Shown piece after piece: positions 5,222 to 51,711 of a stretch of DNA of 64,000 nt. The first letter of the stretch is position 1. Each line of letters opens with the position of its first letter. Source of the stretch: Heptranchias perlo (lineage: Eukaryota). The stretch is from NCBI RefSeq assembly GCF_035084215.1, contig NC_090329.1:101184001-101248000 (forward strand), written 5' to 3'. Position numbers and translations under genes: made by a program. The notes beneath the pieces are model-generated. The model was not told the origin of the DNA and ran no database searches. It was given only the letters and a program-made list of their open reading frames with translations.

Positions 5222-8200
5222 CTTTTTGCATTCGTTCATGGGATGTGGGCATCACTGGCAAGGCCAGCATTTATTGCCCATCCCTAATTGCCCTCGAGAA
5301 GGTGGTGGTGAGGCGCCTTCTGGAACCGCTGCAGTCCGTGTGGTGAAGGTTCTCCCACAGTGCTGTTAGGTAGGGAGTTCCAGGATTTTGACCCAGCGAC
5401 GATGAAGGAACGGCGATATATTTCCAAGTCGGGATGGTGTGCGACTTGGAGGGGAACGTGCAGGTGGTGTTGTTCCCATGTACCTGCTGCTCTTGTCCTT
5501 CTAGGTGGAAGTGGTCATGGGTTTGGGAGGTGCTGTTAAGAGGCCTTGGCAAGTTGCTGCAGTGAGTCATGTGGGTGGTAAACACTACAGCCACCGTGCG
5601 CCAGTGGTGAAGGGAGTGAACGTTTAGGGTGATGGATGGGGTACCAATCAAGCGGGCTGCTTTGTCCTGGATGGTGTCGAGCTTCTTGAGTGTTGTTGGA
5701 GCTGCACTCATCCAAGCAAATAGAGAGTATTCCATCACACTCCTGACTTGTGCCTTATAGATGGTAGAAAGGCTTTGGGGAGTCAGGTGAGTCACCTGCC
5801 GCAGAATACCCAGCCTCTGACCTGCTCTTGGAGCCACAGTATTTATATGGCTGGTCCAGTTAAGTTTCTGGTTAATGGTGACTGCCAGGATGTTAATGGT
5901 GGGGGAAATCAGCGATGGGAACATCGTTGAATGTCAAGGGGAGGTGGTTAGACTCTCTCTTGTTGGAGATGGTCATTGCCTGGCACTTGTCTGGCACGAA
6001 CGTTACTTGCCACTTATCAGCTCAAGTCTGGATGTTGTTCAGGTCTTGCTGCATGCGCGCACGGACTGCTTCATTATCTGAGGGGTTGCGAATGGAACTG
6101 AATGCTGTGCGATCATCAGCGGATATCCCCATTTCTGACCTTATGATGGAGGGAAGGTCATTGATGAAGCAGCTGAAGATGGGTGGGCCTAGGACACTGC
6201 CTTGAGGAACTCCTGCAGCAATGCCTTGGGGCTGAGATGATTGGCCTCCAACAACTACTACCATCTTCCTTTGTGCTAGGTATGACTCCGGCCACTGGAG
6301 AGTTTTCCCGCTGATTCCCATTGACTTCAATTTTACTAGGGCTCCTAGTAATGCTGCATTGATGTCAAGGGCAGTCACTCTCACCTCACCTCTGGAATTC
6401 AGCTCTTTTGTCCATGTTTGGACCAAGGCTGTAATGAGGTCTGGAGCTGAGTGGTCCTGGCGGAACCCAAAATGAGCATCGGTGAGCAGGTTATTAGTGA
6501 GTAAGTGCTGCTTGATAGCACTGTCGAAGACACCTTCCATCACTTTGCTGATGATCGAGAGTAGACTGATGGGGCGGTAATTGGCCGGATTGGATTTGTC
6601 CTGCTTTTTGTGGACAGGACATGCCTGGGCAATTTTCCACATTGTCGGGTAGACGCCAGTGTTGTAGCTGTACTGGAACAGTTTGGCTAGAGGGGTGGCT
6701 AGTTCTGGAGCAAAAGTCTTCAGCACTACAGCCGGGATGTTGTCGGGGCCCATAGCCTTTGCTGTATCCAGTGCACTCAGCCGTTTCTTGATATCACGTG
6801 GAGTGAATCGAATTGGCCGAAGACTGGCTTCTGTGATGGTGGGGATATCGGGAGGAGGCCAAGATGGATCATCCACTCGGCACTTCTGGCTGAAGATGGT
6901 TGCAAACTCTTCAGCCTTGTCTTTTGCACTCACGTGCTGGACTCCGCCATCATTGAGGATGGGGATGTTTACAGAGCCTCCTCCTCCCGTTAGTTGTTTA
7001 ACTGTCTACCACCATTCACGACTGGATGTGGCAGGACTGCAGAGCTTTGATCTGATCCGCTGGTTCTGGAATCGCTTAGCTCTGTCTATCGCATGTTGCT
7101 TCCACTGTTTAGCATGATTATAGTCCTGAGTTGTAGCTTCACCCAGGTCGGCACCTCATTTTTAGGTATGCCTGGTGCTGCTCCTGGCATGCTCTTCTAC
7201 AGGGTTGATCCCCTGGCTTGTTGGTAATGGTAGAGTGAGGAATATGCCGGGCCATGAGGTTACAGATTGGCTCACAGCGCCTCATGGATGCCCAGTTTTG
7301 AGCTGCTAGATCTGTCCTGAATCTATCCCATTTAGCACGGTGGTAATGCCACACAACACGTTGGATGGTGTCCTCAGTGCGAAGACGGGACTTCGTCTCC
7401 ACGAGGACTGTGCGGTGGTCACTCCTACCGATACGGTCATGGACAGATGCATTTGCGACAGGTAGATTGGTGAGGACGAGGTCAAGTAAGTTTTTCCCTC
7501 GTGTTGGTTCGCTCACCACCTGCCACAGGCCCAGTCTGGCAGCTGTGTCCTTCAGGACTCGGCCGCTCGGTCAGTAGTGGTGCTACCGAGCCACTCTTGG
7601 TGATGGACATTGAAGTCCCCACCCAGAGTACATTCTGTGCCCTTGCTACCCTCAGTGCTTCCTCCAAGTGGTGCTCAATATGGAGGACTGATTCATCAGC
7701 TGAGGGAGGGCGGTAGGTGGTAATTAGCAGGAGGTTTCCTTGCCCATGTTTGACCTGATGCCATGAGATTTCATGGGGTCCAGAGTCAATGTTGAGGACT
7801 CCCAGGGCCACTCCCTCCTGACTGTATATCACTGTACCGTCACCTCTGGTCGGTCTGTCCTGCCGGTGGGACAGGACATATCCAGGGATGGTGAAGGAAG
7901 AGTCTGGGACGTTGGCTGAAAGGTATGATTCTGAGTATGGCTGCATCAGGCTGTTGCTTGACTAGTCTGTGGGACGTCTCTCCCAATTTTGGCACAAGTC
8001 CCCAGATGTTAGTGAGGAGGACTTTGCAGGGTCGACTGGGCTTGGTTTGCCTTTGTCGTGTCCGGTGCCTAGTGGTCCGATGCCGGCTGGTCCATCCGGT
8101 TTTATTCTTTTTATGACTTTTTTAAGCGAGATTTTACAACTGAGTGGCTTGCTAGGCCATTTCAGAGGGCAATTAAGAATCAACCACATTGCTGTGGGTC

Positions 8201-8419
8201 TGGAGTCACATATAGGCCAGACCGGGTAAGGACGGCAGGTTTCCTTCCCTAAAGGACATTAGTGAACCAGATGGGTTTTTACGACAATCCGATAGTTTCA
8301 TGGCCACCATTACTGATACTAGTATTTTAATTCCAGATTTTATTTAATTAATTGAATTTAATTAATTGAATTTAAATTCGCCAGCTGCCGTGGCGGGATT
8401 TGAACTCATGACTCCGGAT
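5222..8419 (-). mobile_element. tRNA-headed APE+RT LINE, copy A (frameshifted; truncated inside the head)
   Basis: ORFs 7482-7946 (APE), 6022-6933 (RT: NYRPISLLS, GVPQGSVLGP, ADD) and 5271-5924; B box retained at ~8396-8407; possible TSD aatgt at 5217-5221 and 8420-8424. Confidence 0.9.
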
Positions 8420-13236: not shown

Positions 13237-15351
13237 TATAAGAACATAAGAAATAGGAGCCGGAGTAGGCCATCAAGCCCCTCGAGCCTGCTCTGCCATT
13301 CAACAAAATCATGGTTGATCTTCTACCTCAATGCCATTTTCCTGCACCATGCCCATATCCCTTGATGCCTTTAATATCAAGAAATCTATCGATCTCTGTA
13401 TTGAATGTACTCAATGACTGAGCCTCCACAGCCCTCTGCGGTAGAGAATTCCAAAGACTCACCACGCTCTGAGTGAAGAAATTTCTCCTCATCTCAGTCC
13501 TAAATGGCCCCTTATTCTAAGACTGTGACCCCTCGTTCCAGATTCCCCAGCCAGGGGAAACATCCTCCCTGTATCTACCCCGTCGAGCCCTGTAAGAATG
13601 TTGTATGTTTCAATGAGATCACCTCTCATTCTTCTAAACTCTAGGGAATACAGACCTAGTCTACTCAATCTCTCCTCATACGACAATCCCGCCATCCCAG
13701 GAATCAGTCTGGTGAACCTTTGTTGCACTCCCTCGATGGCAAGTATATCCTTTCTTAGGTAAGGAGACCAAAATTGTACACAATAGTCCAGGTGCAGTCT
13801 CACCAAGGCCCTATATAATTGCTGTAAGACATCTTTACTCCTGTACTCAAATCCTCTTGTAATAAAGGCCAACATACCATTTGCCTTCCTAATTGCTTGC
13901 TGCATGTTAGCTTTCAGTTACTCATGTACAAGGACTCCCAGGTCCCTTTGAACATCAACATTTCCCAATATCTTACCATTTAAAAAATACTCTATTTCTG
14001 TTTTTCCTACCAAAGTGGATAACTTCACATTTTCCACATTGTATTCTATCTGCCATGTTCTTGCCCACTCACTTAGCCTGTCTGTATCCCCTTGAAGCCT
14101 CCTCACAACTCACATTCTCACCTATTTTTTTTATCATCAGCAAACTTGGAAATATTACATTTGGTCCCCTCATCCAAATTATTGATAGATAGTGAATAGC
14201 TGGGGCCCAAGCACCGATCCCTGGGGTACCCCACTAGCCACAGTCTGCCAATCTGAGAAAGACCTGTTTATTCCTACTCTCCGTTTTCTGTCTGTTAACC
14301 AATTCTCAATCCATGCCAGTATATTACCCCCAATTCCACGTGCTCTAAACTTTGTTCACCAACCTCCTGTGTGGGACCTTACCAAAAGCCTTCTGACAAT
14401 CCAAATACACCACATCCACTGGTTCCCCCTTATCTATTCTACTAGTAACATCCTCAAAGAACTCCAATAGGTTTGTCAAACATGATTTCCCCTTCATAAA
14501 TCCATGTTGGCTCTGCCAATTCCTATTATTTTTTAAGTGTCCTATTATCACATCCTTTATAATAGATTCTAGCATTTTCCCTATTACTGTCAGGCTAACA
14601 GGTCTGCAGTTCCCTGTTTTCTCTCTCCCTCCTTTTTTAAATAGTGGGGTTACATTTGCTACCATCCAATCTGCAGGAACAGTGCCAGAATCTATAGAAT
14701 TTTGGAAGATGACAACAAATGTATCAGCTATCTCTCTAGCCACCTCTTTCAATACCCTGGGATGTCGATCATCAGGTCGTTGGGATTTATCAACCTTCAG
14801 TCCCATTAATTTCTCTAGTACTTTTTTTTTAAACTAATACTAATTTCTTTCAGTTCCTCATTCTCGCCAGACCCTTGGTTCTCTCGTATTTCTGTGAAGA
14901 CAGACACAAAGTATGTGTTTAATTTCTCTGCCATTTCCTTATTCCCCATTATAAATTCTCCCATCTGTCTGTAAGGGACCCACATTTGCTTTCGCCAGTC
15001 TTTTCCTTTTTACAAACCTATAGAAGCTTTTACAGTCCGTTTTTATGTTTCTCGCTAGTTTACTCTCATATTCTATTCTCCCTTTTTTAAAAATCAATTT
15101 CTTGGTCCTCCTTTGCTGGATTCTAAAATGCTCCCAATCCTCAGGCTTACTGTTTTTTTTTGGCAACTTTATATGCCTCTTCCTTTGATTTAGTACTATC
15201 TTTAATTTCTCGTTAGCCACGGTTGGACCACTTTTCCTGTTGGGTTTTTGTGCCTTAAAGGAATATATATTTGTTGCAAATTATGTATTAATTCTTTAAA
15301 TGCTAGCCATTGCCTGATAATAGTCATACCTTTTAATGTAGCTCCCCAATC
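13237..15351 (-). mobile_element. CR1 LINE, 5'-truncated
   Basis: ORFs 13489-13905, 14345-14806 (QHGFMKGKSCLTNLLEFFE) and 14939-15220. Confidence 0.92.
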
Positions 15352-16377
15352 ACCGCCCTTTGGGCCTGCTCCACCATTCAAAATGATCATGGATGATCGT
15401 CTAACTCAGTACCCTGTTCTCGCTTCTTCCCCATATCCCTTGATCCCTTTAGCATTAAGAAATATATCTATCTCCTTTTTGAATACATCGAATGACTTGG
15501 CCTCCACTGCCTTCTGTGGTAGAGAATTCCACAGGTTCACCACCCTCTGAGTGAAGAAATTTCTCCTCATCTCTGTTCTAAATGCATGCCCCATAACCTG
15601 AGACTGTGATCCCTGGTTCTGGACTCCCCAGCCATTGGGAACATCCTCCCTGCATCTAGTCTGTCTAGTCCTGTTAGAATTTTATATGTTTCGATGAGAT
15701 CACCTCTCATTCTTCTAAACTCTCGTGAATATAGGCCTAGTCGACCCAATCTCTCCTCATACGTCAGTCCTGCCATCCCAGGAATCAATCTGGTAAACCT
15801 TTGTTGCACTCCCTCCATGGCAAGGACATCCTTCCTCAGATAAGGAGACCAAAACTGCACACAATATTCCAGATGTGGTCTCACAAGGCCCTGTATAACT
15901 GCAGTAAGACATCCCTGCTCCTGTACTCAAACCCTCTTGCAATGAAGGCCAACATACCATTCCCCTTCCTAACTGCTTGCTGCACCTGAATGCTCACTTT
16001 CAGCGACTGGTGTACAAGGACACCCAGGTCTCATGGCACCTCCCCTTTTCCCAATCTATCACCATTCAGATAATAATCTGCCTTTCTATTTTTACAACCA
16101 AAATGGATAACCTCACATTTATCCACGTTATACTGCATCTGCCAAGTTCTTGCCCACTCACCCAACTTGTCTAAATCACATTGGAGTCTCTTTGCATCCT
16201 CCTCACAGCTCACATTCCACCCCAGCTTTGTGTCGTCTGCAAACTTGGAAATGTTACATTCCGTTCCCTCATCCAAATCATTGATATATATTGTGAATAG
16301 CTGGGGCCCAAGCACTGATCCCTGCGGTACCCCACTAGTCACTGCCTGCCACCCGGATAAAGACTCATTTATTCCAC
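15352..16377 (-). mobile_element. CR1 LINE fragment, same subfamily as 40544-42040
   Basis: GVPQGSVLGP…KFADDTKL; RPHLEYCVQFWSP; abuts the previous CR1 and lacks its terminal tail. Confidence 0.9.
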
Positions 16378-16529
16378 AGTATTAGTGCTAATTGCTGATC
16401 AATGGTATGTCTTTGGAGAAGGGGAGAGGTGGAGGGGGGGGAAATTGAGGGACATGGTGAGGTGGTGAAAAGATTGAGTTATGATTTTTGTACATGCAAC
16501 ATAAAAGTCTCATAACAAGGGTTTACAGC

Positions 16530-17160
16530 AACATAAGAACATAAAAAATGAGCTGGGGTAGGCCATACGGCCCCTCGAGCCTGCTCCGCCATTCAATCAG
16601 ATCATGGCTGATCTTCAACCTCAACTCCACTTTCCTGCCCGATCCCCATATCCCTTAGAGTCCAAACATCTATCGATCTCAGCCTTGAATATACTCAACA
16701 ACTCAGCATCCACAGCCCTCTGGAGTAGAGAATTCCAAAGGTTCACAACCAACTGAGTGAAGAAATTCCTCCTCACCTCAGTCTTAAATGGCTGACCCCT
16801 TATCTTGAGACCATGCCCCCTAGTTCTAGACTCTCCAGCCAGGGGAAACAACCTCAAGCATCTACCCTGTCAAGCCCCCCAGAATTTTATTCGTTTCAAT
16901 GAGATCATCTCTCATTCTTCTAAAGTCCAGAGAATATAGGTCCATTCTACTCAACCTCTCCTCATAGGACAACCCCCTCATCCCAGGAATTAATCTAGTG
17001 AACCTTCGTTGCACCACCTCGAAGGCGAGTATACCCTTCCTTAGATAAGGAGACCAAAACTGTACAGTACTCCAGGTGAGGTCTCACCAAAGCACTGTAC
17101 AATAGTAGTAAGACTTCCTTACTCTTGTACTCCAACCCCCTTGCAATAAAGGCCAACATA
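16530..17160 (-). mobile_element. CR1 LINE 3' fragment
   Basis: ORFs 16621-16857 and 16995-17213; CR1 tail. Confidence 0.88.
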
Positions 17161-22508: not shown

Positions 22509-25500
22509 GGGGACGGTAGCATAGTGGTTATGTTACTGGACTAGTAATCCAGACGCTGGACCAAAATCCGGAGTCATGAGTTCAAATTCCACCACGGCAG
22601 CTGGCGAATTTAAATTCAATTAATTGAAATCAATTAATTAAACAAAAGTCTGGAATTAAAATACTAGTATCAGTAATGGTGGCCATGAAAACTACCGGAT
22701 TGTCGTAAAAACCCATCTGGTTCACTAATGTCCTTTAGGGAAGGAAACCTGCCGTCCTTACCCGGTCTGGCCTATATGTAACTCCAGACCCACAGCAATG
22801 TGGTTGATTCTTAATTGCCCTCGGAAATTGCCTAGCAAGCCACTCAGTTGTAAAATCTCGCTACGAAAAGTCATAATAAGAATAAAACCGGACGGATCAC
22901 TAGGCACCGGACACGACAACGGCAAACCAAGCCCAGTCGACCCTGCAAAGTCCTCCTCACTAACATCTGGGGACTTGTGCCAAGATTGGGAGAGCTGTCC
23001 CACAGACTAGTCAAGCAACAGCCTGACACAGCCATACTCACAGAATCATACCTTTCAGCCAACATACCAGACTCTTCCATCACCATCCCTGGGTGTGTCC
23101 TGTCCCACCGGCAGGACAGACCCACCAGAGGTGGTGGTACAGTGATATACAGTCAGAAGGGAGTGGCCCTGGGAGTCCTTAACATTGACTCTGGACCCCA
23201 TGAAATCTCATGGCATCAGGTCAAACATGGGCAAGGAAACCTCCTGCTGATTATCTCCTACCGTCCTTCCTCAGCTGATCAATCAGTCCTCCTCCATGTT
23301 TTACACCACTTGGAGGAAGCACTGAGGGTAGCAAGGGCACAGAATGTACTCTGGGTGGCGGTCTTCAATGTCCATCACCAAGAGTGGCTCGGTAGCACCA
23401 CTACTGACCGAGCTGGCAGAGTCCTGAAGGACACAGCTGCCAGACTGGGCCTGCGGCAGGTGGTGAGCAAGGGAAAAACTTACTTGACCTCGTCCTCACC
23501 AATCTACCTGTCGCAAATGCATCTGTCCATGACAGTATTGGTAGGAGTGACCACCGCACAGTCCTTGTGGAGATGAAGTCCCGTCTTTGCACTGAGGACA
23601 CCATCCAACGTGTTGTGTGGCACTACCACCGTGCTAAATGGGATAGATTCAGAATCGATCCAGCAGCTCAAAACTGGGCATCCATCAGCAGCAGCAAAAT
23701 TGTATTCCAGCACAATCTGTAACCTCATGGCCCAGCATATTCCTCACTCTACCATTACCAACAAGCCAGGGGATCAACCCTGGTTCAATGAGGAGTGTAG
23801 AACAGCATGCCAGGAGCAGCACCAGGCGTACCTAAAAATGGGGTGCCAACCTGGTGAAGCTACAACTCAGGACTACATACATGCTAAACAGCAGAAGCAG
23901 CATGCAATAGACAGAGCTAAGCGATTCCACAACCAACGGATCAGATCAAAGCTCTGCAGTCCTGCCACATCCAGTCGTGAACGGTGGTGGACAATTAAAC
24001 AACTAACGAGAGGAGGAGGTTCTGCAAACATCCCCATCCTCAATGATGGCGGAGTCCAGCACATGAGTGCAAAAGATAAGGCTGAGTGGATGATCCATCT
24101 CTGCCTCCTCCCGATATCCCCACCATCACAGAAGCCAGTCTTCAGCCAATTCAATTCACTCCACGTGATATCAAGAAACGGCTGAGTGACTGGATACAGC
24201 AAAGGCTATGGGCCCCGACAACATCACGGCTGTAGTGCTGAAGACTTGTGCTCCAGAACTAGCTGCGCCTCTAGCCAAGCTGTTCCAGTACAGCTACAAC
24301 ACTGGCATTTACCAGACAATGTGGAAAATTGCCCAGGTATGTCCTGTCCACAAAAAGCAGGACAAATCCAATCTGGCCAATTACTGCCCCATCAGTCTAC
24401 TCTCAATCATCAAACTGATGGAAGATGTCGACAGTGCTATCAAGCGGCACTTACTCACCAATAACCTGCTCACCGATGCTCAGTTTGGGTTCCGCCAGGA
24501 CCACTCGGCTCCAGACTTCATTACAGCCTTGGTCCAAACATGGACAAAAGAGCTGAATTCCAGAGGTGAGGCGAGAGTGACTGCCCTTGACATCAAGGCA
24601 GCATTTGACCGAGTGTGGCACCAAGGAGCCCTAGTAAAATTGAATTCAATGGGAATCAGGGGGAAAACTCTCCAGTGGCTGGAGTCATACCTCGCACAAA
24701 GGAAGATGGTAGTGGTTGTTGGAGGGCAATCATCTCAGCCCCAGGACATTGCTGCAGGAGTTCCTCAGGGCAGTGTCCGAGGCCCAACCATCTTCAGCTG
24801 CTTCATCAATGACCTTCCTTCCATCATAAGGTCAGAAATGGGGATGGTCGATGATTGCAAAGTGTTCAGTTCCATTCGCAACCCCTCAAATAACGAAGCA
24901 GTCAGAGCCCGCATGCAGCAAGACCTGGACAACATCCAGGCTTGGGCTCAGAAGTGGCAAGTAACATTCGCGCCAGATAAGTGCCAGGCAATGACCATCT
25001 CCAACAAGAGAGAGTCTAACCACCTCCCCTTGACATTCAACGGCATTACCATCGCCGAATCCCCCACCATCAACATCCTGGGGGTCACCATTGACCAGAA
25101 ACTTAACTGGACCAGCCATATAAATACTGTGGCTACGAGAGCAGGTCAGAGGCTGGGTATTCTGCGGCGAGTGACTCACCTCCTGACTCGCCAAACCCTT
25201 TCCACCATCTACAAGGCACAAGTCAGGAGTGTGATGGAATACTCTTCACTTGCTTGGATGAGTGCAGCTCCAACAACACTCAAGAAGCTCGACACCATCC
25301 AAGATAAAGCTGCCCACTTGATTGACACCCCATCCACCACCCTAAACATTCACTCCCTTCACCACTGGCGCACAGTGGCTGCAGTGTGTACCATTCACAG
25401 GATGCACTGCAGCAACTCGCCAAGGCTTCTTCGACAGCACCTCCCAAACCCGCGACCTCTACCACCTAGAAGGACAAGAGCAGCAGGCACATGGGAAGAA

Positions 25501-25747
25501 CACCACCTGCATGTTACCCTCCAAGTCACACACCATCCCGACTTGAAAATATATCGCCGTTCCTTCATTGTCGCTGGGTCAAAATCCTGGAACTCCCTTC
25601 CTAACAGCACTGTGGGAGAACAGTCACCACACGGACTGCAGCGGTTCAAGGCAGCAGCTCACCACCACCTTCTCAAGGGCAATTAGGGATGGGGAATAAA
25701 TGCCGGCCTCGCCAGCGACGCCCACATCCCATGAACGAATAAAAAAA
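22509..25747 (+). mobile_element. tRNA-headed APE+RT LINE, copy B (full length, frameshifted)
   Basis: A box TAGCATAGTGG 22517-22527; anticodon-like arm 22536-22552; B box 22579-22590; APE ORF 22977-23576; RT ORF 24208-25686 (LDIKAAFDRVWH, GVPQGS); A-rich tail. Confidence 0.92.
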
Positions 25748-30174: not shown

Positions 30175-33026
30175 ATCTGGTTCACTAATGTCCTTTAGGA
30201 AAGGAAACCTGCCATCCTTGCCTGGTCTGGCCAATACATAACTCCAGACCAACAGCAATGTGGCCTACTCCTGTTCCTATGATTCTTAATCGCCCTCCGA
30301 AATGGCCCAGCAAGCCACTCAGTTGTACAATCTCGCTACAGAAAGTCACAATAAGAATGAAACCGGATGGACCACCCAGCATCGGACCACAAGGCACCGG
30401 ACACGACAAAGGCAAACCAAGCCCAGTCGACCCTGCAAAGTCCTCCTCACTAACTTCTGGGGACTTGTGACAAAATTGGGAGAGCTGTCCCACAGACTAG
30501 TCAAGCAACAGCATGACATAGCCATACTCTCAGAATCATACCTTTCAGCCAACATCCCAGACTCTTCCATCACCATCCCTGGGTACGTCCTGTCCCACCA
30601 GCAGGGCAGACCCACCAGAGGTGGTGGTACAGTGATATACAGTCAGGAGGGAGTGGCCCAGGGAGTCCTCAACATTGACTCCAGACCCCATGAAATCTCA
30701 TGGCATCAGGTCAAACGTGGGCAAGGAAACCTTCTGCTGATTACCACCTACTGCCCTCCCTCAGCTGATGAATCAGTCCTCCATGTTGAGCACCACTTGG
30801 AGGAAGCACTGAGGGTAGCAAGGGCACAGAATGTGCTCTGGGTGGGGGACTTCAATGTCCATCACCAAGAGTGGCTCGGTAGCACCACGACTGACCGAGT
30901 CCTGAAGGACACAGCTGCCAGACTGGGCCTGCAGCAGGTGGGGAGCGAACCAACATGAGGGAAAAACCTACTTGACCTCATCCTCACCAATCTACCTGTC
31001 ACAGATGCATCTGTCCATGACAGTATTGATAGGAGTGGCCACTGCACAATCCTCGTTGAGACGAAGTCCCGTCTTCGCACTGAGGACAGTATCCAACATG
31101 TTGTGTGGCACTACCACCGTGCTAAATGGGATAGATTCAGAACAGATCTAGCAGCTCAAAACTGGGCATCCACGAGGGACTGTGGGTCATCAGCAGCAGA
31201 TTTGTATTCCACCACAATCTGTAACCTCATGGCCCGGCATTTTCCTCACTCTACCATTACCAACAAGCCAAGGGATCAACCCTGGTTCAATGAGGAGTGT
31301 AGAAGAGCATGCCAGGAGCAGCACCAGGCATACCTAAAAATGAGGTGCCAACCTGGTGAAGCTACAACACAGGACTACATGCATGCTAAACAGCAGAAGC
31401 AACATGCTATAGACAGAGATTCCACAACCAACGGATCAGATCAAAGCTCTGCAGTCCTGCCACATCCAGTCGTGAATGGTGGTGGACAATTAAACAACTA
31501 ACGGGAGGAGGAGGCGGCTCTGTAAACATCCCCATCCTCAATGATGGCGGAGTCCAGCACGTGACAGCAAAAGACAAGGCTGAAGCGTTTGCAACCATCT
31601 TCAGCGAGAAGTGCTGAGTGGATGATCCATCTCAGCCTCCTCCCGATATCCCCACCATCACAGAAGCCAGTCTTCAGCCAATTCGATTCACTCCACGTGA
31701 CATCAAGAAACAGCTGAGTACACTGGATACAACAAAGGCTATGGGCCCCGACAACATCACGGCTGTAGTGCTGAAGACTTGTGCTCCAGAACTAGCTGCG
31801 CCTCTAGCCAAACTGTTCCAGTACAGCTACAACACTGGCATCTACCCGACAATGTGGAAATTTGCCCAGGTATGTCCTGTCCACAAAAAGCAGAACAAAT
31901 CCAATCCGGCCAATTACCACCCCATCAGTCTACTCTCAATCATCAGCAAAGTGATGGAAGGTGTCGTCGACAGTGCTATTAAGTGGCACTTACTCACCAA
32001 TAACCTGCTCACCGATGCTCAGTTTGGGTTCCGCCAGGATCACTTAGCTCCAGACCTCATTACAGTCTTGGTCCAAACATGGACAGAAGAGGTGAATTCC
32101 AGCGGTGAGGTGAGGCGAGAGTAACTGCCCTTGACATCAAGACAGCATTTGACTGAGTGTGGCACCAAGCAGCCTTAGTAAAATTGAAGTTAATGGGAAT
32201 TAGGGGGAAAACTCTCCAGTGTCTGGAGTCATACCTAGCACAAAGATGGTTGTGGTTGTTGGAGGCTAATCATCTCAGCTCCAGGACATTGCTGCAGGAG
32301 TTTTCAGGGCAGTGTCCTAGGCCCAACTATCTTCAGCTGCTTCATCAATGACCTTCCTTCCATCATAAGGTCAGAAATGGGAATGTTCGCTGATGATTGG
32401 AGTGTTTAGTTCCATTCACAACTCCTCAAATAATGAAGTAGTCCAAGCCCACATGCAGCAAGACCTGGACAACATTCAGGCTTGGGCTCAGAAGTGGCAA
32501 GTAACATTCGCGCCAGATAAGTGCCAGGCAATGACCATCTCCAACAAGAGACAGTCTGCCCACCTCCCATTGACATACCATCGCCGAATCCCCCATCAAC
32601 ATCCTGGCACCCCATCCACCACCCTAAACATTCACTACCTCCACCACCAGTGCACAGTGGCTGCAGTGTGTACCATCCACAGGATGCACTGCAGCAACTC
32701 GCCAAAGCTTCTTCGACAGCACCTCCCAAACCCACGACCTCAACCCCCTTGGACAAGAGCAGCAGGCACATGGGAACAACCCCACCTGCACGTTCCCCTC
32801 CAAGTCACACACCATCCTGACTTGGAAATATATCGCCGTTACTTCATCGTCGCTGGGTTAAAATCCTAGAACTCCCTATCAGCACTGTGGGAGAACCTTC
32901 ACCACACGGACTGCAGCGGTTTAAGGCGGCGGCTCACCACCACCTTCTCAAGGGCAATTAGGGATGGGCAATAAATGCTGGCCTTGCCAGCGACACTCAC
33001 ATCCCATAAAAATGAATAAAAATAAA
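30175..33026 (+). mobile_element. tRNA-headed APE+RT LINE family, copy C (head lost, internal deletion)
   Basis: ORFs 30302-30958 (APE, VGDFNVHH) and 31618-32124 (RT); same 3' tail as copies A and B. Confidence 0.9.
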
Positions 33027-50103: not shown

Positions 50104-50897
50104 AGAACAGACTTAATATGGCACAGGATGTGGGCAGCAGAGTTTTGGACAAGCTCAAGGTAGTGTTGGGTGAAGCCCATGAGACCACTGAGGAGGGCAT
50201 TGACGAAATTAAGTCTAGAGATAATAAAAACCTGGATAAGAGTTTCAACATAAGAATAAGAATTGCCTTAAATATGTCCTCAAAATGGAGTCAGTTGTCA
50301 GACTGAATGTTAGGGAAGGACTTATGTTAATTCAACCATGAAGGTTTATACAAACAAAACATTCCTTACCAGGGAAAGAAAACAAGCTATCAAGAAGACA
50401 ACAGGCCCATGGAGGGCTGTTTAAGGGGGACATAAAGATATCCTGCCTTTTCTGGACTTGCATGTGACTCCTTTGTTAACAATGACCTAAGAAGCTTGGG
50501 AGTAAATGAGCTACCTGGCATGTGTCACTCAGATTGGTCAATAGAATTGAGGAGGTTTCCTTGGAAATTAAGGATAAATAACATAGTGTTTTGATGCAGA
50601 AGACCTCAGACTTCAGTTCTAAGTTTTCGGAACTCAGTTCAGTTCTATTTCTTTTAGTGGTACTTGTAGTAGTTTTTGTAGTAGAAGGTGTAGGAGTTCT
50701 TTGTCCAGTATATGGGTGTCTCTCTAAAATCAGAAAGTGCATCTCCAACAGAAAGAGAAAAGTTACAGAGGTTAGGATTGTTTTGCTATACTAGCCAGAT
50801 ACAGGCAGATCTCACTGGAGTGTGTCACGTCGATGTACAAGTTTCTCTGAGACCAAGGGAGCTGAGATTTAAGCCAACTAATTCCAGCTACCAGCAT

Positions 50898-51236
50898 GGA
50901 ATGTTTCCCCTTGTGGGAGAGACTAGAACTAGGGGCCACAGTTTAAAAATAAGGAGTCTCCCATTTAAGATGGAGATGAGGAGAATTTTTTTCTCTCAGA
51001 GGGTCGTGAGTCTGTGGAACTCCCTTCCCCAGAGAGCGGTGGAGGCAGGGTCATTGAATATTTTTAAGGCTGAGTTAGATAGATTTCTGATTAACAAGGG
51101 AGTCAAAGGTTATAGTAGGTAGACAGGAAAGTAGGGTTGAGGTCGCAATCAGATCAGCCCTGATCTTATCAAATGGCAGAGCATGCTCGAGGGGCCGAAT
51201 GGCCTACTCCTGCTCTTATTTCGTATGTTCGTATGA
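50898..51236 (+). mobile_element. CR1 LINE 3' fragment
   Basis: MFPLVGETRTRGHSLKI…WNSLP; tail. Confidence 0.88.
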
Positions 51237-51711
51237 ATGTGAATTTACCCAGGATCAGAGGATGCAGGAAGAATGGATAGCACTTCTACAGATTGAGGTT
51301 CATAACTCTGAAGACTGACGAGACTAACACCAAACTTGTGGAGGAAGATGAGGCAAGCAGTTCATCCACGCCAGCTTATAAGGACGAGGTCATACAAATT
51401 CTGAAAACATTGCCAACTACAAGTATATAGACTTTAATCTATTCCATTGACTAGCTCTCTAATTTTATCAGCTGTCTACAACAATCACAATCTAAAAATT
51501 ACAACAACTTGCATTTATAGTGCACCTTTAAGGTAGTAAAATGTCCCAAGGCACTTGACAGGAGTGTTGTCTGAGCCACAAATTAATCTCACCAATTTAT
51601 ATCAATCTCAACTGTAAATTTATAATCAGCAAGCAGTTAATGCTGAATTACTGAACTAGCTTTGTAACCTCTTATTTATTTTGTCAATTAACCCTGTCTA
51701 CTATTTCTTTG

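What the first reader, a model, noticed from the sequence alone, without database searches (positions are those of the whole stretch)
22509..25747. Protein-coding LINE with a tRNA-derived Pol III head and no conserved Pol III terminator
Seen: copy B begins with a tRNA-like head. It has an A box (TAGCATAGTGG), a perfect anticodon-like arm (CTGGA-CTAGTAA-TCCAG), a long variable arm as in tRNA-Ser and a B box, and runs straight into APE and RT coding sequence with no ORF1. The independent copy A has the same head-to-body junction, so the fusion itself retrotransposed. On the sense strand I find only 1-2 TTTT runs per copy (B 23299; C 31240, 32301; A 6469, 6712). None is shared between copies, so the ancestral ~3.2-kb element had none, whereas neighbouring CR1s have many. 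Known: tRNA heads define non-coding SINEs, LINEs normally use Pol II, and Pol III stops at T4 or longer. Inference: an autonomous retrotransposon transcribed by Pol III and selected against terminators, which would need cap-independent translation. The sense strand is T-poor, so the depletion needs a formal test.
Basis: partly seen in the sequence, partly recalled or inferred. Interest (0 to 1): 0.82.

Follow-up and report, generated by a model that had tools for sequence, protein, structure and literature searches.

The report
Shark LINE with tRNA promoter head
This is a worn copy of a very abundant shark jumping gene (a Zenon-type LINE) that encodes its own copying enzymes yet begins with a tRNA-like piece and is short of T runs, so it is likely copied into RNA by polymerase III, an enzyme normally used only for short non-coding RNAs.

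Summary
Real and family-wide. Copy B (22509-25747) is a decayed member of the elasmobranch Zenon LINEs (CR1 group, one APE-RT frame, no ORF1, A-tail; PMC13343379). Full-length copies begin at a tRNA-derived head with A and B boxes: 31 of 40 copies picked by their ORF alone start within its first 27 nt, and none shares upstream sequence in register. The published consensuses from four sharks and a ray start with the same head; that paper never mentions tRNA. Sense-strand T runs are depleted: T4 0 vs 3.3 expected (P 0.02), T3 8 vs 17.5 (P 0.002). A, C and G runs and other LINEs of this genome are not depleted. There is no in-frame AUG before the endonuclease. Short SINE-like derivatives share head and tail. 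Corrections: copy A lacks the A box; the parent tRNA is unresolved (not shown to be Ser); T4 alone in the ORF is not significant. Against Pol III: the youngest subfamily carries one TCTTT (45 of 67 copies), and an old subfamily often has T4+ behind the B box. Pol III transcription is inferred (about 0.55), not shown. The scan noted this family on three other genomes.

The parts
22509..25747 (+). Copy B: full-length, decayed Zenon LINE (3.2% from column majorities, broken frame)
22509..22590 (+). tRNA-derived head; nt 1 is the shared 5' end of the family
22517..22527 (+). A box
   Evidence: a matching box in the five species' consensuses
22536..22552 (+). Anticodon-arm-like hairpin (stem as in the genome's tRNA-Gln; loop as in tRNA-Thr AGT)
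22556..22571 (+). Second hairpin at the variable-arm position; here a near-duplicate of the first, absent in some old copies
22579..22590 (+). B box (same variant as the genome's tRNA-Gln genes; one private C>T in copy B)
   Evidence: 12 of 12 columns kept in mid and old subfamilies
22591..22853 (+). 5' UTR, highly conserved in sharks and rays; also the body of the short SINE-like derivative; holds out-of-frame or stopped AUGs
22854..25686 (+). Single APE-RT frame, broken here into three pieces (22854-23576, 23577-24185, 24190-25686); 973 codons stop to stop in intact copies, first Met at codon 250
23299..23302 (+). Private TTTT of copy B (1 of 67 copies)
25687..25747 (+). 3' UTR with AATAAA (25695-25700) and short A tail (25741-25747); no clear TSD
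5223..8419 (-). Copy A: starts at head nt 59 (B box, no A box)
30175..33022 (+). Copy C: starts at nt 207 in the UTR, with an internal deletion
42650..42748 (+). Old fragment of the UTR or SINE body (81%)

Best explanation
An autonomous single-frame Zenon LINE of sharks and rays whose full-length unit starts with a tRNA-derived A-box/B-box head, and which is likely transcribed from that head by RNA polymerase III. Shown: the unit is about 3.3 kb (head, 5' UTR, one APE-RT frame, A tail); it spreads with ordinary 5' truncation; short head-plus-tail derivatives exist; T runs are scarce on the sense strand only; no in-frame AUG precedes the endonuclease. Inferred: an ancestral Zenon gained the head once (template jump to a tRNA or SINE RNA) before sharks and rays split. 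TFIIIC/TFIIIB would start transcription at nt 1. Pol III would read about 3.3 kb because terminators have been purged, and would stop at the next T run in the flank. The uncapped RNA would be translated from a non-AUG start (or by frameshift from a +1-frame uORF), and its own protein would prime TPRT on the A tail. The same promoter would drive the short derivatives, which are then SINEs born by internal deletion.
For: (1) 31 of 40 copies chosen by ORF alone start within head nt 1-27 (14 at nt 1); the other 9 start at nt 78-411; no upstream sequence is shared in register (40 of 47 listed hits fetched). 34 of 39 head hits run into the LINE body and 5 are short forms. (2) Head type tracks body age: bodies of young, mid and old head classes are 95-100, 92-97 and 84-91% identical to L039, apart from two misclassed copies. 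(3) All 7 elasmobranch Zenon rows (5 species) in PMC13343379 Suppl. Table 2 open with the head, three with the textbook B box GGTTCGAATCC, and have no TTTT in the 400 nt shown. The 2 hagfish and 1 coelacanth rows have no such head and do have T4+ runs (read by eye). (4) Whole element: T4 0 vs 3.3 (P 0.020), T3 8 vs 17.5 (P 0.002); A, C and G runs are not depleted. T4 or TVTTT: 0-1 vs 5.4-6.3 in 5 copies tested (P 0.001-0.007). (5) Controls: lowest T3 O/E of 75 LINE frames (0.48; median 0.97), and also lowest in Phe share and TTT share. 17 other LINE groups of this genome give T3 270/277 and T4 78/83. The closest full-length relative, L067 (37%), has no head and T4 20/19.8. (6) 11 of 67 copies have any T4, and no site is shared by more than 3. 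(7) First in-frame Met is at codon 250, past the APE domain. (8) 35 of 67 sampled copies keep a frame of 960 codons or more (40 of the 67 were chosen for their frame).
Against: No transcript, ChIP or cap data. T4 in the ORF alone is not significant (P 0.07-0.12). All copies descend from one lineage, so the depletion is one evolutionary sample, and several T statistics were tried. The strand is T-poor (20%). A TCTTT is shared by 45 of 67 young copies; in B2 SINEs this motif stops about half of transcripts (PMC8466645, passages). In the old subfamily a T4+ run follows the B box in 9 of 12 short and 4 of 11 LINE copies. Decay at T/A junctions may explain it (tail control 6 of 13 old, 4 of 24 mid, 1 of 33 young), but this is not proven. 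Missing ORF1 and the A tail are Zenon-wide traits, and several headless relatives also seem to lack an early Met, so neither points to Pol III. An AATAAA lies about 40 nt before the tail and fits Pol II as well. The A and B boxes are not clearly better conserved than the hairpins between them. The UTR does not fold better than shuffles (z -0.5).
Confidence: 0.55

Rival explanations
1. The head is a captured relic, or serves only the short derivatives. The LINE mRNA is a normal capped Pol II product from an internal promoter in the conserved 5' region, starting at nt 1; T scarcity reflects C/A-rich composition and lineage history.
For: LINEs normally use internal Pol II promoters that also give fixed 5' ends (established; PMC5786205 passages). 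TCTTT is fixed in the youngest subfamily, old copies have T runs behind the B box, AATAAA precedes the tail, and the UTR is as well conserved as the boxes. A small-RNA piece riding on an autonomous element has a precedent: U12-headed R2 (PMC3414825 section 8).
Against: Depletion is T-specific and remains after codon usage is fixed. Low-T control LINEs do not show it, nor do 17 LINE groups of the same genome. Both boxes persist in five species while the hairpin sequence between them changed. Scanning from a cap would meet several UTR AUGs and no in-frame one.
Confidence: 0.3
2. Split labour: Pol III makes the template RNA from the head, but the protein comes in trans from Pol II transcripts of copies inside host genes.
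For: It removes the need to translate an uncapped RNA. The tail is recognised in trans, as the short derivatives show. The whale shark preprint places 39% of CR1-Zenon sequence in introns (10.1101/443036, passage).
Against: An element that never supplies its own protein should lose its frame, yet intact 973-codon frames are common and persist through subfamilies. The missing AUG remains a problem on a Pol II RNA too.
Confidence: 0.11
3. Each headed copy is a fresh chimera, made when the RT jumps from LINE RNA to SINE RNA (as in U6-L1 chimeras); the headed LINE does not replicate as a unit.
For: A SINE-like element with the same head and UTR is abundant.
Against: The junction is the same in all copies, head variants track body variants through three subfamilies, ORF-selected copies carry the head or end inside it, and five species have the same layout.
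Confidence: 0.03

Closest known systems
Elasmobranch Zenon LINEs (SquAca, CarCar, RhiTyp, ScyCan, HypSab Zenon-1; Stuart et al. 2026, PMC13343379)
   Same: About 3.3 kb, one APE-RT frame, no ORF1, A tail. The first 400 nt of SquAca_Zenon-1 match this genome's mid subfamily almost letter for letter (by eye).
   Different: The paper's main text has no 'tRNA' or 'promoter' and the held supplement no 'tRNA'. The head, the T-run depletion, the missing AUG and the SINE-like derivatives were not found described in the passages read.
tRNA-headed SINEs (SINE2), including bipartite SINEs built from LINE 5' and 3' ends (Kojima 2018, PMC5786205)
   Same: tRNA head with A and B boxes at nt 1, body, LINE-shared tail. 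The short derivatives here have exactly this layout.
   Different: There the head is added to an already deleted LINE, only RTE and Vingi were found as donors, and the paper states that SINEs cannot encode a protein. Here the coding parent itself carries the head.
Persaeus SIDE and Zenon of Lepidoptera (PMC6740152)
   Same: Single-frame Zenon that yields short internally deleted elements.
   Different: Persaeus has no tRNA homology and no Pol III promoter.
R2 (Pol I co-transcript, ribozyme-cut), and U12- or tRNA-capped R2 copies (PMC3414825)
   Same: Single-frame non-LTR element whose RNA is not a normal Pol II mRNA; template jumps add small RNAs at the 5' end.
   Different: R2 has no promoter of its own and is site-specific. 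The small-RNA extensions were single events or one possible subfamily, with no promoter role shown. Rfam found no ribozyme here.
T+ SINEs B2, Dip, Ves (PMC8466645)
   Same: Pol III RNAs with AATAAA near the tail; T runs beside A tails lengthen with age.
   Different: They are non-coding and carry their own terminator; this element has none before the tail.
Shark SINEs HE1 (V-SINE) and SacSINE1 (Deu-SINE)
   Same: tRNA-headed shark retroposons.
   Different: Their tails are reported from other LINEs (SacSINE1: L2, PMC5499810; HE1: HER1, recalled). Their sequences could not be compared here.

Membership tests
Zenon LINE (CR1 group) | APE plus RT in one frame | tested here: met
Zenon LINE (CR1 group) | No ORF1 | tested here: met
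   345 nt from 5' end to frame; no copy extends further
Zenon LINE (CR1 group) | Poly-A tail (unique to Zenon in the CR1 group per PMC13343379) | tested here: met
Zenon LINE (CR1 group) | Sequence match to the published elasmobranch Zenon consensuses | tested here: met
   A UTR motif of the window hits 6 supplement rows; the first 400 nt and lengths agree by eye
Zenon LINE (CR1 group) | RT falls in the Zenon clade of a reference tree | not testable with these tools
   No named reference RTs held; only 29% to the window's CR1 RT and 36-39% to unnamed best hits
tRNA-derived SINE head (type 2 Pol III promoter) | tRNA ancestry | tested here: met
   Scores 58.5-62.5 vs shuffle maxima 43.5-48.5 against 65 tRNA genes of 11 anticodon types; isotype unresolved; Rfam weak
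tRNA-derived SINE head (type 2 Pol III promoter) | A box near nt 9 and B box downstream, at the element's 5' end | tested here: met
tRNA-derived SINE head (type 2 Pol III promoter) | No internal terminator | tested here: inconclusive
   No conserved T4, but TCTTT in 45 of 67 young copies and T4+ behind the B box in 13 of 23 old copies
tRNA-derived SINE head (type 2 Pol III promoter) | Transcribed by Pol III | not testable with these tools
   Needs ChIP, inhibitors and 5'-end chemistry
SINE (whole element) | Non-coding and non-autonomous | tested here: not met
   973-codon APE-RT frame intact in many copies; met only by the short derivatives
HE1 (V-SINE) or SacSINE1 (Deu-SINE) | V or Deu central domain | not tested
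   Reference sequences not available

The most novel reading that the evidence does not exclude
The first autonomous, protein-coding retrotransposon that runs on its own RNA polymerase III promoter: a 3.3-kb uncapped mRNA without an AUG start, purged of T runs even at the cost of codon and amino-acid choice, kept since before sharks and rays split, and the direct parent of its own SINEs.
Probability: 0.5. Interest if true: 0.9.

Novelty: new variant of a known kind. Interest (0 to 1): 0.7.

Why it matters
The textbook split is LINE = Pol II and coding, SINE = Pol III and non-coding. A successful vertebrate LINE (46,414 exact hits of one 3' motif and 5,565 of a head motif in this genome) that starts with a Pol III promoter would break that split. 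It would be a natural multi-kilobase Pol III mRNA, and would offer a direct test of cap- and AUG-independent translation in a vertebrate. It also gives a simpler route to SINE birth: internal deletion of a parent that already has the head. Even if Pol II turns out to be used, the head is an unremarked conserved feature of a major shark and ray repeat, and it should change how shark SINEs and Zenon are annotated.

Tried and rejected
ARAGORN on the window: no tRNA. Rfam: only a sub-threshold tRNA match and no ribozyme. Folding of the head and of the UTR was no better than shuffles (z -0.98 and -0.50), so no IRES-like fold is claimed. TSDs: longest flank match averaged 5.6 vs 4.4 nt for mismatched pairs in 16 full-length copies, so mostly absent. 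tRNA-Ser origin is not singled out; a clean tRNA-Gln origin is best only for the one-arm and old heads. T runs in the A tails as fossil terminators: rejected, since 27 of 205 background A7+ runs have an adjacent T4+. C>T rate at near-T4 sites (3 of 430 vs 427 of 25,195) has too little power. A diverged sister family sought with an old fragment returned only the young family. Viral contigs: no relatives. Headed relatives among metagenome LINEs: 1 of 43 has a tRNA-like stretch about 930 nt before its frame and no T depletion (L100); my A/B-box regular expression missed the element's own box variants, so the alignment score was the measure. Sequencing runs: no RNA holder listed on record, so nothing is said about expression; all laid runs were contigs. 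Full-length T4 counts in the published consensuses were impossible, because supplement cells are cut at 400 characters. Papers on Pol III-made mRNA, R2 translation and L1 ORF2 initiation were not held. No structure prediction or RT tree was run.

Full report
1. Observation. The window holds three long copies and one fragment of the element: A 5223-8419 (-), B 22509-25747 (+), C 30175-33022 (+) and 42650-42748. B begins with an A box (22517), a hairpin (22536), a second hairpin (22556) and a B box (22579). About 260 nt of UTR follow, then a broken APE-RT frame and an A tail. A starts at head nt 59, so it has the B box and the junction but no A box; C starts in the UTR.

2. The head is the family's 5' end. 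A search of the 3.25-Gb genome with the head gave 39 other top copies. Of the 29 first inspected, 23 start at the base matching 22509 and 6 within 12 nt, all with unrelated flanks. Of the 39, 34 run into the LINE body and 5 are short head-plus-tail forms. That sample is biased toward whole heads, so I drew a second one by protein only, using a 39%-identical relative as query (40 of 47 hits fetched). Of these 40, 31 start within head nt 1-27 (14 at nt 1), and 9 start at nt 78-411 (one with a deleted head, one at an assembly gap). Upstream matches between copies are other repeats, out of register. TSDs are mostly absent. In an unbiased 264 kb around the window, 27 segments match; most are 5'-truncated and two reach nt 1-2. 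Exact motif counts in the genome are 5,565 for the head, 7,251 for the frame start and 46,414 for the 3' end.

3. It is old and inherited as one piece. Three head types go with bodies 95-100, 92-97 and 84-91% identical to reference copy L039; two LINE copies were misclassed by my motif rule. Contigs of four other coded organisms cover both head and body, show loose ends at nt 1 where listed, and hold joints from the UTR end to the 3' tail, which are the short forms; contigs say nothing on expression.

4. Identity. The intact frame is 973 codons from stop to stop, APE then RT. The best database relatives are unnamed APE-RT proteins at 36-39%; an 80%-identical piece lies in a protein annotated for the shark Heptranchias perlo. 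The window's CR1 RT is only 29% identical. Stuart et al. 2026 (PMC13343379; abstract, outline, passages and supplement rows seen) describe Zenon elements in five elasmobranchs: no ORF1, poly-A tail, more than 84% alike. A UTR motif of the window hits six supplement rows. All seven elasmobranch rows begin with this head, while the hagfish and coelacanth rows do not and are rich in T runs (first 400 nt only, read by eye). The word tRNA occurs neither in the main text nor in the held supplement. The element is therefore an elasmobranch Zenon. If inherited vertically, the head predates the shark-ray split (roughly 270-300 My, recalled).

5. The head is tRNA-derived, parent unknown. Against 65 tRNA genes of this genome (11 anticodon types), five heads score 58.5-62.5, versus at most 43.5-48.5 for shuffles. 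Gln, Leu, Ser and Thr score alike, and the one-arm form fits Gln best. Here the second hairpin nearly repeats the first; in three other sharks it is a hairpin of different sequence. The B box is the variant also used by this genome's tRNA-Gln genes.

6. T-run test. In the frame alone, T4 is 0 against about 2.0-2.3 expected (P 0.07-0.12), but T3 is 5-6 against 12-17 (P about 0.01 or less) in five intact copies under three nulls. With the UTR added, T4 is 0 vs 3.3 (P 0.020) and T3 is 8 vs 17.5 (P 0.002); A, C and G runs are normal, G4 being the nearest at P 0.055. TTTT and TVTTT are the shortest working terminators in B2 (PMC8466645, passages). Together they occur 0-1 times against 5.4-6.3 expected (P 0.001-0.007; five copies tested). 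Among 75 LINE frames of 330 codons or more (72 from the 80 metagenome loci, two window CR1s and L039), L039 has the lowest T3 ratio (0.48; next 0.67; median 0.97), the lowest Phe share and the lowest TTT share; two short controls also have no T4. Seventeen other LINE groups of this genome show no depletion (T3 270/277, T4 78/83). Of 67 young copies, 11 have any T4 and no site is shared by more than three.

7. Results against. One TCTTT (element nt 561) is shared by 45 of the 67 copies. In the old subfamily, a T4+ run follows the B box in 9 of 12 short and 4 of 11 LINE copies, against 0 of 28 mid and 1 of 37 young. The tail junction, where the source has one T, also gains T4+ with age (1 of 33, 4 of 24, 6 of 13). 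Ageing T runs are reported for B2, and the five other species lack T4 at this site. Decay after insertion is likely but not proven. The boxes are not clearly more conserved than the rest of the head. All copies stem from one lineage, and several statistics were tried.

8. Translation. The first in-frame Met is codon 250, beyond APE. The AUGs in the UTR are either out of frame or stopped before the frame. The AUG at nt 290 opens a +1 frame that overlaps the start of the main frame. A second +1-frame AUG seen in the other species' rows is absent here (38 of 38 matched ORF-selected copies). So the protein needs a non-AUG start or a frameshift, whichever polymerase is used. AUG-independent translation is reported for L1 ORF2 (PMC11485995, passage). 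Several headless relatives also seem to lack an early Met, so this trait may predate the head; it would have made an uncapped RNA tolerable (inference). That Pol III can make translatable mRNA from artificial templates is recalled only.

9. Mechanism and rivals. Most likely (0.55): Pol III transcription from the head, read-through allowed by loss of terminators, non-canonical initiation, and TPRT in cis; short derivatives share promoter and tail. Rivals: Pol II transcription with a relic head (0.30), Pol III template with protein supplied in trans (0.11), recurrent chimeras (0.03).

10. What is in print. Ten library searches listed no paper on an autonomous tRNA-headed or Pol III-transcribed LINE; most hits were seen as listings only. 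The nearest cases are bipartite SINEs (PMC5786205: part 1 and passages), the headless Zenon SIDE Persaeus (PMC6740152: passages) and small-RNA-capped R2 copies (PMC3414825: passages and section 8). PMC4824008, PMC11481361, PMC7245038 and 10.1101/443036 were seen as passages, and PMC5499810 as one part of six. Repbase, Dfam, subscription papers, figures, the bioRxiv version of Stuart et al. and the uncut supplement were not seen and could hold a prior description. Three earlier reports of this scan on other genomes reach a similar reading; they are not independent support.

11. Verdict. A known LINE family with an unremarked SINE-type head, established here beyond doubt, and with moderate statistical support for Pol III transcription. 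New variant of a known kind; interest 0.7, and 0.9 if Pol III use is shown.

Noticed in passing
L011, L021, L027, L059, L064, L188-L206; joints: A SINE-like family of head + UTR + 60-170 nt of tail, with varied deletion points, so probably born many times from the LINE; also present in contigs of other coded organisms.
   Followed up: partly
window 13240-17160, 39700-42040, 43550-46540, 48290-51240: Several CR1 copies, with RT frames at 40635-41828 (-) and 44307-45407 (+); used as T-run controls.
   Followed up: partly
P0018: An annotated shark aldo-keto reductase-like protein contains an 80%-identical piece of this element's frame: exonisation or a gene-model error.
   Followed up: no
G000:C38 about 2.5-8.9 Mb; G000:C1414: Long arrays of tRNA-Gln(TTG)-like motifs about every 3.1 kb, and of tRNA-Ser(AGA)-like motifs about every 3.0 kb.
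   Followed up: no
L075:1965-2039 (-): A full tRNA (Rfam 49.8 bits) lies antisense inside the start of a metagenome LINE frame.
   Followed up: no
L100:183-236: A tRNA-like stretch with A and B boxes about 930 nt before another LINE frame; that frame is not T-depleted.
   Followed up: partly
L134:99-3050: A metagenome LINE frame with few T4 (2 vs 8.9, P 0.003); its 5' end is cut off, so a head could not be checked.
   Followed up: partly
L009, L012, L038, L040, L048, L049: Second copies of the family often lie within 0.6 kb of the head or tail, many in opposite orientation.
   Followed up: no
L287-L314: ARAGORN calls Gln-like genes with TTA, CTA and TCA anticodons near tRNA-Gln genes; probably mutated pseudogenes.
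   Followed up: no
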